Position numbers and translations under genes: made by a program. The notes beneath the pieces were generated by a model. The model did no database searches. It saw only the letters and a list, made by a program, of their open reading frames with translations, and was not told the origin of the DNA. A DNA stretch of 64,000 nucleotides, from the IMG/VR virus record IMGVR_UViG_3300024272_000009; one strand, given 5' to 3'. The stretch is from a virus. Its lineage: Duplodnaviria; Heunggongvirae; Uroviricota; Caudoviricetes. Positions within the stretch are counted from its first letter, which is position 1, and the number at the start of each line of letters is the position of its first letter. Of the stretch, positions 11,809 to 61,369 are shown one piece after another.

Positions 11809-12873
11809 TTAATTGTCAAGTTCCCATTTACCATTGTCCCAGAAAGTTACGTAGTACTCACCGTTGTCATTCGGGCCGTCTTCGTCATAAACTTTTCCAA
11901 GTTTTTTGTAAAGTCTGATAGCACCGTCATTTTTAGCATCTACAAAGCAATAAATAAGGTCATATTGATTTTTGTACTTTTCTACAATATTTTGAATTAC
12001 TGCTGAGCCAAGACCTTTACCGCGCTCGATAATCATAAAATTGCCGATGCCGAGACACTTACTTCCGTTTTCCTCATATTCAGAAAAACCGATATAGCCA
12101 GCAAGCTTTCCTTCAGAATGAATTTCTTTAATAGAGCTTTTAATATCTGCATCAGACATATTTCCATATCCGTCTAAGATATCGTCAGCATATTCTTTAA
12201 AAAGCTCTATATCTGAAACCGGAAGATAATCAATTTGAGAATTGCTATTTACAGACTCTTCAAGCGGAACATCAGACTCCATAATATTATTAGAAATATC
12301 AAAAGTATATTTTACAGGAAGTTTATAACATTCTTTAGCAAGTCCCCAGTTATCAACGCCTGTGATAACTTTATCCATCATTCTTACTTCAAGAATATCT
12401 GAATTTTTATCATAGCGCCACCACTGATTAGCAACGTCCTGAAGAAGTGCTTCTAAGGAAGTATATTTATGAATACCTCTGGCATGCTGCATTGAATGCT
12501 CAAACCAGCAGTAATTTTTACCTTCTTTATAAACTAAAAACACATGAGCAGAACCCTCAGCACCGTATTCTTTTTTAGAATTATTCTCTTTAACCATTAC
12601 TAAGAAAGTCTCATAGCCAAGGTCCTCAAGAACTTCTTTTTCGAGATAGGACTGTTCAGCGCAATGTCCAGTGCCAGTTTTTAAAACTTCTTCTGCTGTT
12701 TTAGTAGGAACTCCGTTACTGTTAGAATACTCATCATCTACAAGTTCATAAGTAATGTTTTCATTCATCCAGTCCATTAACTCTTCTGGCGAAGAAACAC
12801 CTTCTATAGATAATGAATCTCCGTTTATCTCACTAAGCTCTTCATAAAGCTCCATAAATTCTGTTTTAATCAT
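11809..12873 (-). CDS. Transglutaminase-like (Cys-His-Glu) domain fused to a GNAT acetyltransferase
   Basis: EEVLKTGTGHCAE...AHVFL...WFE; C-terminal RGKGLGS and NDGAIRLYKKLG; SD GGAG. Confidence 0.75.
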   Translation of the reverse strand: MIKTEFMELYEELSEINGDSLSIEGVSSPEELMDWMNENITYELVDDEYSNSNGVPTKTAEEVLKTGTGHCAEQSYLEKEVLEDLGYETFLVMVKENNSKKEYGAEGSAHVFLVYKEGKNYCWFEHSMQHARGIHKYTSLEALLQDVANQWWRYDKNSDILEVRMMDKVITGVDNWGLAKECYKLPVKYTFDISNNIMESDVPLEESVNSNSQIDYLPVSDIELFKEYADDILDGYGNMSDADIKSSIKEIHSEGKLAGYIGFSEYEENGSKCLGIGNFMIIERGKGLGSAVIQNIVEKYKNQYDLIYCFVDAKNDGAIRLYKKLGKVYDEDGPNDNGEYYVTFWDNGKWELDN

Positions 12874-46400: not shown

Positions 46401-47222
46401 TTAGTTCTCCTTAGGAAGAAATCTTTCAATATAGTTTCGGTCCTGTGTAAAAATAGGACACTCTTTGTCAATATACCATTCAGTTCTTGCTGCGCCGTTT
46501 ACTTCGATAGCTCTCTTATAACAGCAGATACCACGCTTAAACTCAATAGGCATATCATTGAAATTAATGCCTTTCTGCCAAAGCATTTCCTGAATCATAT
46601 CAGTCTTCTTTTTATGCAATTCATTATGATTAAAATAAGTCTGGCCAAGCATCTGAATTGCGTTTCGAGTAGCATCTTCTTGCCTCCACACAAAGCAATT
46701 CACAACTTCAGAAGCAGGAATATTAAAGCAGCGAGCATCAAACATCGCACCCTTATCACAACACTTCTTTAGTGCTTCAGAATATCTTTTAATAGGCTCC
46801 TCAAAGTAATGATTACACCACAAATCAGATTTATGATAATCATCTACAAGCATATTAAATGACTTATTGAAAATCATTGTTGCCATAGAAGCCGCAACAG
46901 AGCAGATCTTTTGCACGTTATAATCAAAGAAGGCATCAGTAGTCAGAGTATCATAGTCAGTCAACAGAAGCGAAATTTCATCACTCTGCGTATAACCAAA
47001 CTTACAACCCTGAATATTTTTACAAAGATACTGCAAAGTAGAGTTCATTGCCTTATGAAAAATCTCATCGTAAGGCTTTTGCAAATTACTAGTAAAGCTA
47101 TGGAAAGCCTTACCGTCCAAACGAATAATACAAGGCGTACGTCGTGTCAGATAAGTTTTACTACGATTCTCGTAGTTTTCTTTCATACGATCGCCAAGAG
47201 AATCTTTTTTATTATTTCCCAT
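46401..47222 (-). CDS. thg1: Thg1-like tRNA guanylyltransferase / 3'-5' polymerase
   Basis: IIRLDGKAFHSFT, YTQSDEISL, FDAR, WRQEDATRN. Confidence 0.93.
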   Translation of the reverse strand: MGNNKKDSLGDRMKENYENRSKTYLTRRTPCIIRLDGKAFHSFTSNLQKPYDEIFHKAMNSTLQYLCKNIQGCKFGYTQSDEISLLLTDYDTLTTDAFFDYNVQKICSVAASMATMIFNKSFNMLVDDYHKSDLWCNHYFEEPIKRYSEALKKCCDKGAMFDARCFNIPASEVVNCFVWRQEDATRNAIQMLGQTYFNHNELHKKKTDMIQEMLWQKGINFNDMPIEFKRGICCYKRAIEVNGAARTEWYIDKECPIFTQDRNYIERFLPKEN

Positions 47223-48157: not shown

Positions 48158-48192
48158 AAATAAGGTCTCCTTCCTCAAATAAAATATTTTGT

Positions 48193-48353
48193 AGGCTGTT
48201 CATCACACTCCATTTACCACAGCGCTTTTGACAATCCCGCAGAGGTTCCGCCCCGCTAAGTTTAAACGTGTTACACGGCCTGCTTGCACCCCGATTCATC
48301 CGGACATTTCGAGTGCCCTAGAGCTAACGGCTTAAGGATCCTTCGTGGCACCT
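48193..48353 (-). ncRNA. Scaffold-repeat unit 4 (161 nt)
   Basis: 5' AGGUGCCACGAAG ... GCUGUGGUAAAUGGAGUGUGAUGAACAGCCU 3'. Confidence 0.7.
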
Positions 48354-48463
48354 ACAATTAAATTGCTTGTTGCTGAGCACCCAAGCGAAGGTGAACGGGG
48401 AACTTCCCACGTCATTCGACTCAGCTGTATAAAATAAGGCTAGCTAATCCTACATTTTATACT

Positions 48464-48589
48464 AGGCTGTTCAACTCTCTCCATTTACCACAGCTTCTGC
48501 ATCCCGTCTTTCAGTCCCCGGCCGTGCTAGCTTCTTAGGCTGCTTTTGTTCCGGCTTACTAACTGAATCCATAGGGCTTCGTGGCACCC
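48464..48589 (-). ncRNA. Scaffold-repeat unit 3 (126 nt)
   Basis: 5' GGGUGCCACGAAG ... GCUGUGGUAAAUGGAGAGAGUUGAACAGCCU 3'. Confidence 0.7.
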
Positions 48590-48597
48590 CAAAAATC

Positions 48598-48740
48598 AGG
48601 CTGTTCATCAAACTCCATTTACCACTGCATTTTGTCGCCTCACAGAGCTTTATCTCGTTGACGGATTGGTTACCTTGTAAAACAACGAGCTAACTTCATC
48701 AAGAAGTATTCACTCCCAAGTTATTGGCATCGTGGCACCT
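48598..48740 (-). ncRNA. Scaffold-repeat unit 2 (143 nt)
   Basis: 5' AGGUGCCACGAUG ... GCAGUGGUAAAUGGAGUUUGAUGAACAGCCU 3'. Confidence 0.7.
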
Positions 48741-48751
48741 CTAAACATATC

Positions 48752-48852
48752 AGGCTGTTTATCGCATTCCATTTACCACTGCTTCTGAATCTTATTGGTA
48801 CCCGGTATGACCCATAATCAATCATCCGACCAAGCTAAGCTTCGTGGCACCT
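48752..48852 (-). ncRNA. Scaffold-repeat unit 1 (101 nt)
   Basis: 5' AGGUGCCACGAAG ... GCAGUGGUAAAUGGAAUGCGAUAAACAGCCU 3'. Confidence 0.7.
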
Positions 48853-48870
48853 GATATTATATAATACGAT
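48853..48870 (-). promoter_or_regulatory. -10 promoter directly upstream of the repeat array
   Basis: CGTATTATATAAT-ATC-AGGTGCC; predicted +1 falls at the conserved 5' motif. Confidence 0.65.
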
Positions 48871-59338: not shown

Positions 59339-59431
59339 AATAAATCTCCTTTATATAAATAATTACTATTATAATATACGATAAAAAAAAGAGAAAAGTC
59401 ACTCAAAACTGAATAACTTTCCTCTTAAGTA

Positions 59432-59506
59432 TGGAGCTGGCGAAGGGAATCGAACCCCCAACCTGCTGATTACAAGTCAGCTGCTCTACCGTTGAGCCAC
59501 GCCAGC
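59432..59506 (-). tRNA. tRNA-Thr(UGU)
   Basis: Full cloverleaf, anticodon TGT, encoded CCA. Confidence 0.95.
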
Positions 59507-59511
59507 ATATT

Positions 59512-59588
59512 TGGTTGCGGGAGTAGGATTCGAACCTACGACTTCTCAGGTTATGAGCCTGGATTGCTGACCTCTGCATCATCCCGCG
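59512..59588 (-). tRNA. tRNA-Met(CAU), initiator-like
   Basis: Cloverleaf, anticodon CAT, C1:A72 mismatch, CCA. Confidence 0.88.
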
Positions 59589-59595
59589 ATATATG

Positions 59596-59958
59596 ACCTA
59601 GCTAAATACTATTTGATGTGGATTACGACAGTCAGCCAGGACGACTGATAATCGTCTCCACGCATTACCTTCTTTAAGAAATAAGCATAGGTTCTAGAAA
59701 AAATAGGCTCGACTATTTATGTATGCCAGGCTACCTCTATATTCCAGAAGGATATATAGATACCCGGCCGAAGTCTTTTGTTAGTATTAGAAATAAGTAC
59801 GAGCTCTTTTTAATTTAGCAAATAAAATTTGGCCTAACTGTCTTTACTATTTACCCTTTTAAATATCATAAGAAATAAGTATAGGCTCTATTTTATATAA
59901 TTGGCTTGGCTACTTTACTAAATATCAATTATATTTCAAAGAAATAAGCACAAGCTCT
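59596..59958 (-). repeat. Four-unit structured RNA repeat (AGARCYYRTRCTTATTTCT plus a co-varying 3' arm)
   Basis: 19-mers at 59940-59958, 59871-59889, 59789-59807 and 59677-59695, each with a compensatory downstream partner strand. Confidence 0.75.
59812..59820 (-). promoter_or_regulatory. Putative late promoter TGCTAAATT inside the repeat array
   Basis: Motif between repeat units 2 and 3. Confidence 0.5.
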
Positions 59959-59973
59959 TAATTATATTTTAAA

Positions 59974-60153
59974 TTATTCTGTTACTTCTACAGCAGGTGC
60001 AGAAGTAGTTTGAGTCTTAAGTTGCTCATTTTCTACCACTACAGTATTGTACGACTGAACTAAACTAGCTAAAGCGCCGCAAAGCTCATTAGCCAGAGCA
60101 GGCGCGCCGCTCTCAATAATCTTACAAATTAATTCAAACTGAAAATGGGTCAT
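59974..60153 (-). CDS. 59-aa hypothetical protein (MTHFQFEL...), below the ORF-track cut-off
   Basis: SD GGAG and upstream promoter. Confidence 0.7.
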   Translation of the reverse strand: MTHFQFELICKIIESGAPALANELCGALASLVQSYNTVVVENEQLKTQTTSAPAVEVTE

Positions 60154-60217
60154 TTTAAAATATCTCCTAAATAATTTTTATATTATATTATACGATATTT
60201 ATTTTATTTTATTTTTA

Positions 60218-60878: not shown

Positions 60879-61340
60879 TTAAGAGGTAGTATAACTACCT
60901 GCTGCAGCACCTGCATTAGGTGCTTTAATTGCATGACAATTTGGACAAGCAATCTTTAAGTTGGAAAGCTCATTATTGTAGTGATTACCATCTTCATGAT
61001 GAAGCTCAAGAGGCAACTTAACACCCAGCCAATGAGAATTTCCACAGTACTCACACTTATCTTCTTTTAAACCGTCACGAATAAGTTTTAACTTTAACTT
61101 ATGTGAAGTAATGGGAAGCGCATTCGGACCTAAATAGTAAGAAGAATCTTTATAAACATTACTACCCTTTTGCTGACCTTTTTTAGCCTGCTGTCCGGAA
61201 TATGTAATATTCATTTTAGCTAAGTAAGCATTAAGTGTTTCCTGCTTACAGCCTAAACGTTTTGCCATTTCGCGCTTAGGGAGCTCTTCAGCAATCCATT
61301 CTAAAATTAGCTCTTTCTTATTAATCAAGTCAGTACGCAT
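60879..61340 (-). CDS. HNH endonuclease with an N-terminal HTH
   Basis: EMAKRLGC; CEYCG...LELHHEDG...N..SNL...CPNCH; start moved to MRTDL. Confidence 0.9.
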   Translation of the reverse strand: MRTDLINKKELILEWIAEELPKREMAKRLGCKQETLNAYLAKMNITYSGQQAKKGQQKGSNVYKDSSYYLGPNALPITSHKLKLKLIRDGLKEDKCEYCGNSHWLGVKLPLELHHEDGNHYNNELSNLKIACPNCHAIKAPNAGAAAGSYTTS

Positions 61341-61369
61341 TTTAAATATCTCCTTTATTTGCATCATTA

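What the first reader, a model, noticed from the sequence alone, without database searches (positions are those of the whole stretch)
59596..59958. Second RNA repeat array with clear compensatory base changes, upstream of tRNA-Met and tRNA-Thr
Seen: four copies of AGA-RCYYR-U-RCU-UAUUUCU at periods of 69, 82 and 112 nt. The variable positions pair with a downstream arm in every unit: GCUUG/CAAGC, GCCUA/UAGGC, GCUCG/CGAGC, ACCUA/UAGGU. After a bulged U the next helix also co-varies: GCU/AGC, ACU/AGU, ACU/AGU, GCU/AGC. Three units also pair UAUUU with AAAUA. The enclosed apical regions differ in length and sequence. A GCTAAATT motif lies between units 2 and 3, and the last unit ends ~7 nt before tRNA-Met. 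Inference: a conserved bulged helix recognised by a protein or nuclease, e.g. a processing signal, a pseudo-antitoxin/decoy RNA, or an RNA anti-defence element.
Basis: partly seen in the sequence, partly recalled or inferred. Interest (0 to 1): 0.72.

Follow-up and report, generated by a model that had tools for sequence, protein, structure and literature searches.

The report
Y-RNA-like array before phage tRNAs
Four small folded RNAs in a large gut or rumen phage share one conserved closing stem that, across phages and many gut bacteria, travels with one unstudied protein, so they are probably members of an undescribed RNA-protein particle built like Ro60 with its Y RNAs.

Summary
Observation confirmed. 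Four minus-strand units (56, 59, 102, 101 nt) share a closing stem: AGA, 5 bp, bulged U, 3 bp, invariant UAUUUC. The 220-kb phage holds nine copies. The other five lie around a 660-aa helical+TerD gene 12 kb away, and two enclose YrlA-type permuted tRNA modules. All 58 distinct 5' arms from related phage loci have their own 3' partner (7.7% when swapped); 6 of 8 pairs covary. The upper UAUUU/AAAUA pairing is not conserved. The array recurs before tRNA-Met in five other phage arrangements. Variant stems lie beside homologous genes in 64 of 80 Clostridia loci and in cultured Rhodococcus phage Weasels2. Best reading (0.6): Y-RNA-like small RNAs whose stem binds that protein while the apical part is a swappable module. 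They are not members of YrlA/Ro60: no GNCGAA motif, no TROVE or vWA by sequence, only a weak fold likeness. Antitoxin and CRISPR readings are unsupported. Binding and expression are inferred, not shown. The scan found this family before on other DNA (49 notes, at least 40 genomes); I found no paper on it.

The parts
60186..60196 (-). Early-type phage promoter box (extended -10, TCGTATAAT) that probably drives orf59, units 1-4, tRNA-Met and tRNA-Thr
   Evidence: Sequence; same box repeated genome-wide (family D1/D7); same position in L007 and L048. Function inferred.
59974..60153 (-). 59-aa ORF of unknown function, first in the probable transcript
   Evidence: no Pfam or PHROG hit; a similar ORF precedes the array in L007, L031 and L048 but not in L005, L037 or L050 (by eye)
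59903..59958 (-). Unit 1, 56 nt: stem GCUUG-U-GCU / AGC-CAAGC closing a short AU-rich hairpin
   Evidence: model R1 63 bits (the unit is in the training set); orthologous units in L007 and L031 with a compensatory G-C to A-U change
59831..59889 (-). Unit 2, 59 nt: stem GCCUA-U-ACU / AGU-UAGGC closing a hairpin with a GGG-containing loop
   Evidence: GGG occurs in 17 of 49 short units against 3.9 expected from shuffles
59812..59819 (-). GCTAAATT box, probable internal (late-type) promoter placing +1 at the start of unit 3
Evidence: Box lies 4-6 nt before a unit in the window, L007, L031 and L037; 4 of 85 units against a 0.3% background rate.
59706..59807 (-). Unit 3, 102 nt: stem GCUCG-U-ACU / AGU-CGAGC closing a long irregular hairpin
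   Evidence: 37.7 bits, not in the training set; orthologous cargo in L007 and shorter CCUGG/CCAGG versions in L005 and L031
59595..59695 (-). Unit 4, 101 nt: stem ACCUA-U-GCU / AGC-UAGGU closing a long irregular hairpin; ends 6 nt before tRNA-Met
   Evidence: 37.9 bits, not in the training set; orthologous unit in L031 keeps the hairpin with a different sequence
59512..59588 (-). tRNA-Met(CAU), initiator-like (C1:A72 mismatch); its RNase P site would free the 3' end of unit 4
   Evidence: processing inferred
59432..59506 (-). tRNA-Thr(UGU), last gene of the tRNA cluster
59389..59426 (-). Intrinsic terminator-like hairpin with T-run closing the probable transcript
   Evidence: 17 pairs, T tail

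Best explanation
The four units are genes for small Y-RNA-like RNAs of one family. Each has a constant closing stem (the 'handle': 5'-AGA, 5 bp, bulged U, 3 bp, single-stranded UAUUUC) and a variable apical module. SHOWN: the stem is under selection as RNA structure, is always on the transcribed strand, often starts at a promoter-defined +1, closes YrlA-type tRNA mimics in other copies, and is co-inherited with one ~660-aa protein family (helical N-terminus, TerD-fold C-terminus; genome 135976-137958, P0001). INFERRED: a precursor (orf59, units 1-4, tRNA-Met, tRNA-Thr; a second start at unit 3) is cut by host RNase P at tRNA-Met and in the AU-rich 10-23-nt linkers. Each released RNA binds P0001 through the handle, as Y RNAs bind Ro60. 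The protein shields the RNA ends and the apical module tethers or occupies a second factor (a nuclease or tRNA-binding protein). Units 1 and 2, which are nearly bare handles, most likely load or titrate the protein; units 3 and 4 present long hairpins to an unknown partner. The particle probably serves RNA surveillance or repair during infection.
Confidence: 0.6

Rival explanations
1. The stem is a cut or cut-and-ligate signal. A nuclease cuts both strands of the handle, with or without ligation, to release or circularise the enclosed RNA or to mature neighbouring tRNAs; permuted tRNA modules could be matured this way.
For: Units often sit in tRNA spacers and unit 4 abuts tRNA-Met. The phage has an RNA ligase and end-healing genes. 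Several enclosed permuted tRNAs carry an anticodon-like loop, some handles enclose whole tRNAs, and one unit is nested inside another.
Against: The distance from handle to tRNA module varies (about 2-6 nt on the 5' side, 4-9 nt on the 3' side; read by eye). The two modules of this genome have no complete anticodon loop. Many units begin at a promoter +1 and one looks like a stand-alone gene. An interrupted 8-bp helix is short for RNase III (own knowledge); an ACCU/AGGU Mini-III-type site (motif from memory) is in only 4 of 85 units.
Confidence: 0.12
2. The handle is only a cis-acting operator by which P0001 controls its own mRNA; distant copies are sponges that tune this loop.
For: In Clostridia and most phages one or more handles lie just upstream of the gene; in this genome one ends 94 nt before the start codon.
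Against: The window array has no coding gene downstream in its transcript; the Weasels2 array lies after the gene; conserved tRNA and anticodon mimics inside handles would be unnecessary.
Confidence: 0.1
3. The handle binds some other, host- or phage-encoded protein, and P0001 is only a frequent neighbour.
For: G011 has a handle without a detectable P0001 homolog; binding is unshown.
Against: The pairing persists at 24-45% protein identity across gut phages, Clostridia and an actinophage, and the handle sequence drifts with the protein subfamily.
Confidence: 0.07
4. The array is a pseudo-antitoxin or RNA anti-CRISPR that directly neutralises a host type III toxin or Cas protein.
For: Tandem structured units in a phage, with their own promoter boxes.
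Against: No Rfam antitoxin or CRISPR match even at E 10; no ToxN, Abi_2 or Cas1 in the genome; units are end-closed stems of unequal length; bacterial copies sit beside P0001 homologs.
Confidence: 0.08
5. The arms are DNA elements (operator, iteron or ends of a miniature mobile element).
For: Imperfect inverted repeats, variable copy number, one nested copy.
Against: Strict strand bias, G-U pairs tolerated especially in bacterial copies, sequence free to vary while pairing is kept, no target duplications seen, RNA-type cargo.
Confidence: 0.03

Closest known systems
Bacterial and phage Y RNAs YrlA/YrlB/Yrn2 with Rsr (Ro60); Rfam RF02553; PMC4201824
   Same: RNAs closed by a 5'/3' stem with a bulged helix and a conserved 5'-strand motif; several per genome; at least one with a T-arm-then-D-arm tRNA module and others without; polycistronic with tRNA; encoded near one protein gene; present in phages.
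   Different: Handle motif is RCU-UAYUUC, not GNCGAA (0 of 85); both strands covary; up to nine copies, some 12 kb from the gene; cargo includes isolated anticodon stem-loops, whole tRNAs and plain hairpins; the partner has TerD instead of vWA and no detectable TROVE sequence.
Thermus phage phiLo Ro60 with Yrl1/Yrl2 (PMC12135203; PDB 9l5y)
   Different: phiRo60 is a canonical HEAT+vWA ring reading CGAA and recruits PNPase; none of this is shown for P0001.
MXAN_6230/SCO0854 family RING-domain proteins (NCBIfam NF041916; Pfam PF14447 carriers)
   Same: P0001 residues 274-570 are homologous (E 3.5e-21) and the whole model matches such a protein (TM 0.79 over 629 residues). From memory, unverified here: Pfam describes these as RING plus ROT/TROVE-like repeats plus C-terminal TerD.
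   Different: P0001 lacks the RING hit and scores 75 bits against a cut-off of 600; I found no paper giving this family an RNA partner.
Type III toxin-antitoxin repeats (ToxI and phage pseudo-ToxI) and CRISPR-derived RNA anti-CRISPRs
   Same: Tandem non-coding RNA units in a phage.
   Different: No toxin or Cas1 gene, no Rfam match, units of unequal length closed by a split repeat.

Membership tests
YrlA-type Y RNAs (RF02553) | Stem formed by the 5' and 3' ends with a bulged helix | tested here: met
YrlA-type Y RNAs (RF02553) | GNCGAA motif near the 5' end | tested here: not met
   0 of 85 phage units; motif defined in PMC4201824
YrlA-type Y RNAs (RF02553) | tRNA-like module with T arm before D arm in at least one RNA of the genome | tested here: met
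   Genome 135491-135592 and 135657-135762; absent from the four window units
YrlA-type Y RNAs (RF02553) | Score at or above the Rfam gathering threshold (69 bits) | tested here: not met
   40.6 and 34.6 bits for sister copies; no hit on the window units; sub-threshold hits also arise in control genomes
YrlA-type Y RNAs (RF02553) | Encoded near a TROVE-domain Ro60 ortholog | tested here: not met
   No PF05731 match in the genome or four related complete phages; control rang in Deinococcus
YrlA-type Y RNAs (RF02553) | Bound and stabilised by the Ro60 ortholog in vivo | not testable with these tools
   Needs pull-down or EMSA
Ro60/Rsr (for P0001) | TROVE sequence family | tested here: not met
   Pfam none; hhalign against 120 Ro60 sequences probability 0.1%, same as reversed control
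Ro60/Rsr (for P0001) | HEAT-repeat ring like Ro60 | tested here: inconclusive
Ro60/Rsr (for P0001) | C-terminal vWA domain | tested here: not met
Type III toxin-antitoxin antitoxin | Cognate toxin gene next to the repeats | tested here: not met
   No ToxN (PF13958) or Abi_2 (PF07751) in the genome; the neighbours are tRNAs; TenpN and CptN were not searched
Type III toxin-antitoxin antitoxin | Near-identical head-to-tail pseudoknot repeats | tested here: not met
   Units are 56-102 nt with unrelated interiors; no Rfam match
CRISPR array | Constant repeats with spacers of regular length, cas genes | tested here: not met
   Periods 69/82/112, split repeat; no Cas1; cargo has no 13-mer match elsewhere in the phage
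MXAN_6230/SCO0854 family (NF041916) | Full-length score above 600 bits with RING finger | tested here: not met
   75 bits, residues 274-570 only

The most novel reading that the evidence does not exclude
An independently built or very deeply diverged counterpart of the Ro60/Y RNA particle, in which a TerD-capped helical protein reads one RNA handle and phages expand the handle into a library of swappable modules. Some modules are anticodon-loop decoys: 22 of 85 phage units carry a CU-NNN-AA loop against about 1 expected, 13 of them UUU, UGU or GUU, the anticodons cut by the PARIS nuclease AriB in E. coli (10.1101/2025.02.04.636281). The system would be an RNA-based counter-defence that holds host tRNA nucleases on a protein scaffold, with the window's four units as loaders and adaptors for other targets.
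Probability: 0.25. Interest if true: 0.85.

Novelty: new variant of a known kind. Interest (0 to 1): 0.62.

Why it matters
Y RNAs are known only with Ro60. A second protein family with its own Y-like RNAs, spread through large gut and rumen phages, Clostridia and at least one cultured actinophage, would show that the handle-plus-module design is more general. It would give a function class to an unannotated family of more than 1000 clusters and a testable role for TerD domains and for tRNA mimics in phage tRNA clusters. This array adds that handles are also deployed far from the gene, at a conserved place before tRNA-Met, with non-tRNA cargo. Weasels2 and cultured Eubacterium strains make the idea directly testable.

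Tried and rejected
Rfam at gathering and at E 10: only tRNAs in the window. First idea, that the sister copies are spliceable permuted tRNAs: lowered once they matched the YrlA arrangement and the spacing proved variable. Sequence searches of P0001 against Pfam and PDB gave nothing; Foldseek of the N-terminal model gave nothing below E 0.05; hhalign with Ro60 negative. TROVE was absent from 44 Clostridia genomes with a P0001-type gene, which says little because Ro60 is rare. Antisense or guide role of units 3 and 4 on phage genes: no 13-mer match elsewhere in the genome. The sigma-70 scan was at chance level. Mutual information is circular (units picked for pairing) and alignment A4 also holds picked units; one search is the non-circular test. 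The first bacterial partner count (55 of 131) used too narrow a filter and was redone. Six unpaired arms from the collection scan lie in unrelated contigs and look like chance. The Aravind-group papers on ROT/TROVE-TerD architectures and the 2020 Ro60 review were not held. Literature searches found no description of this RNA-protein pair, but the library is incomplete. No complex prediction was run because the tool does not take RNA partners.

Full report
Setting. The window is part of a 220,023-base virus record, 96% complete, with 29 tRNA genes on the minus strand. Its closest relatives come from metagenomes and the homologous bacterial genes are from gut and rumen Clostridia, so a clostridial host is likely but not shown. 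The finding lies at the downstream end of the tRNA cluster.

Observation. Four 19-nt arms begin at 59958, 59889, 59807 and 59695 (minus strand), with periods 69, 82 and 112. Each arm has its exact 8-base complement downstream, followed by C. Shuffle probabilities are 0.005, 0.006, 0.0003 and 0.002. The units are 56, 59, 102 and 101 nt long with linkers of 13, 23 and 10 nt, and unit 4 ends 6 nt before tRNA-Met. Each unit folds into the stem alone; in the precursor units 1 and 3 dominate while units 2 and 4 compete with other folds. Rfam has no match. The probable transcript runs from a promoter box at 60196-60186 through a 59-aa ORF, the four units, tRNA-Met and tRNA-Thr to a terminator at 59426-59389. 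A GCTAAATT box sits 4 nt before unit 3.

Other copies in the genome. The arm occurs nine times, always on the gene strand, with none in the reversed control. Five copies lie outside the window. One, at genome 142425, is followed directly by a terminator-like hairpin. One ends 94 nt before a 660-aa gene (P0001, genome 135976-137958), and three follow that gene. Two of those three enclose a tRNA 3' half followed by a tRNA 5' half. This is the arrangement of YrlA Y RNAs, and they score 40.6 and 34.6 bits on RF02553, below the 69-bit threshold. The third encloses a lone Lys(UUU) anticodon stem-loop. A kinase-HD gene lies just upstream of P0001; an RNA ligase, RlaP and Thg1 are elsewhere in the genome.

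Conservation in phages. All 14 loci fetched by the protein carry the stem. Of 58 distinct arms chosen by their 5' sequence alone, all 58 have their own 3' partner, against 7.7% when arms and downstream regions are swapped. In 32 short units the eight pairs are 100% paired and six show two-sided changes, well above slid controls; the upper UAUUU/AAAU register is 69% paired without covariation. UAUUUC is therefore invariant in sequence without a kept partner, as expected of a protein-read strand. Arrays of two to four units directly before tRNA-Met recur in L005, L007/L048, L031, L050 and L037/L055, with compensatory changes between orthologous units and with the GCTAAAT box 4-6 nt before a unit in four arrays. 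Eighteen of 85 units start 3-8 nt after a promoter box, against a 0.7% background, so AGAG is often the 5' end. Cargo varies: short hairpins (17 of 49 with GGG, 3.9 expected), anticodon-like loops (22 units, about 1 expected; 8 UUU, 3 UGU, 2 GUU), permuted or whole tRNAs, long hairpins, and one nested unit. The four window units carry no tRNA or anticodon mimic. Of 22 further contigs found by the DNA pattern, 7 encode the protein. Most of the rest are short fragments or hold unpaired chance arms, but one complete 230-kb phage has a paired stem and no detectable homolog.

Conservation beyond. The protein family has 1076 clusters at 50% identity. In 80 Clostridia loci the core RCUUAYUUY is found 52 times in the 600 nt upstream on the sense strand, 3 times antisense and 3 times in twice as much DNA further away. 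A variant handle (AGCUAG, 7-bp helix, UAYUUC) occurs 124 times in 64 loci; 106 have a complete partner against 8.9% swapped, and some enclose YrlA-type modules. Cultured Rhodococcus phage Weasels2 (NC_041887) has four units at 85491-85824 right after a 24%-identical homolog, one with a YrlA-type module and a CUCUUAA loop.

Mechanism. Best reading (0.6): the units are released from the precursor by RNase P at tRNA-Met and by cuts in the AU-rich linkers. Each binds P0001 through the handle, and the apical module engages a second factor, as Y RNAs tether Ro60 to PNPase (PMC4201824; PMC12135203). Units 1 and 2 would mainly load or titrate the protein; units 3 and 4 would present long hairpins. Structure, strand, synteny and gene linkage are shown; transcription, processing, binding and function are inferred. 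Rivals are a cut-and-ligate signal (0.12), a pure autoregulatory operator (0.10), an antitoxin or anti-CRISPR decoy (0.08), another binding protein (0.07) and a DNA element (0.03). No ToxN, Abi_2 or Cas1 was found.

Membership and novelty. It works like Y RNA with Ro60 but fails the defining tests: no GNCGAA motif, sub-threshold Rfam scores, no TROVE and no vWA. I file it as a new variant of a known kind. I found no paper on the pair. I had reached this reading before opening earlier notes (stated). The scan has reported the same family on other DNA in 49 notes from at least 40 genomes; the word 'handle' is borrowed from them, and their agreement is not independent evidence. What this locus adds is a gene-distant, syntenic array with non-tRNA cargo and an internal promoter box, the statistics on anticodon-like loops, and a cultured phage in which the idea can be tested. 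Counts across related phages are not independent. Interest 0.62.

Noticed in passing
window 48188-48870 (-): A different four-copy RNA family (GGUGCCACGA ... GUGGUAAAUGGA ... AACAGCCU scaffold) unrelated to the handle described here.
   Followed up: no
window 59512-59588 (-): tRNA-Met has the initiator-type C1:A72 mismatch but an odd D arm, a C27:A43 mismatch and AGG instead of three G-C pairs in the anticodon stem.
   Followed up: no
window 60879-61367 (-) and genome about 134950-135420: HTH plus HNH-like genes inserted in the tRNA cluster, probably homing endonucleases (weak Pfam hits for the first).
   Followed up: partly
L044 10894-11072: One handle unit is nested in the acceptor-stem loop of a YrlA-type unit.
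   Followed up: no
L009 18338, L035 2504, L012 11970: Handles enclosing whole tRNA-like sequences in normal order; the L009 one has a 6-nt anticodon loop.
   Followed up: no
L038 744-684 (G011, complete 230-kb phage): A paired handle between tRNAs in a genome with no detectable P0001 homolog, TROVE or YrlA module.
   Followed up: partly
L158 3397-3747 (NC_041887 85491-85824): Unannotated four-unit handle array after gp266 of cultured Rhodococcus phage Weasels2, each followed by a GCUCRCC motif.
   Followed up: partly
L005 about 12060-12200: After tRNA-Met, the tRNA-Thr-like gene breaks off at the anticodon loop and ARAGORN does not call it; it may hold an insertion or intron.
   Followed up: no
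window 46401-47222; genome 138392-139324, 184212-185880: RNA-repair gene set: Thg1, kinase-HD, RNA ligase and RlaP-type nucleotidyltransferase.
   Followed up: partly
(BFVD): Structural relatives of P0001 in Campylobacter phages IBB35 and CP21 and Lactobacillus phage LpeD; their flanks were not checked for handles.
   Followed up: no
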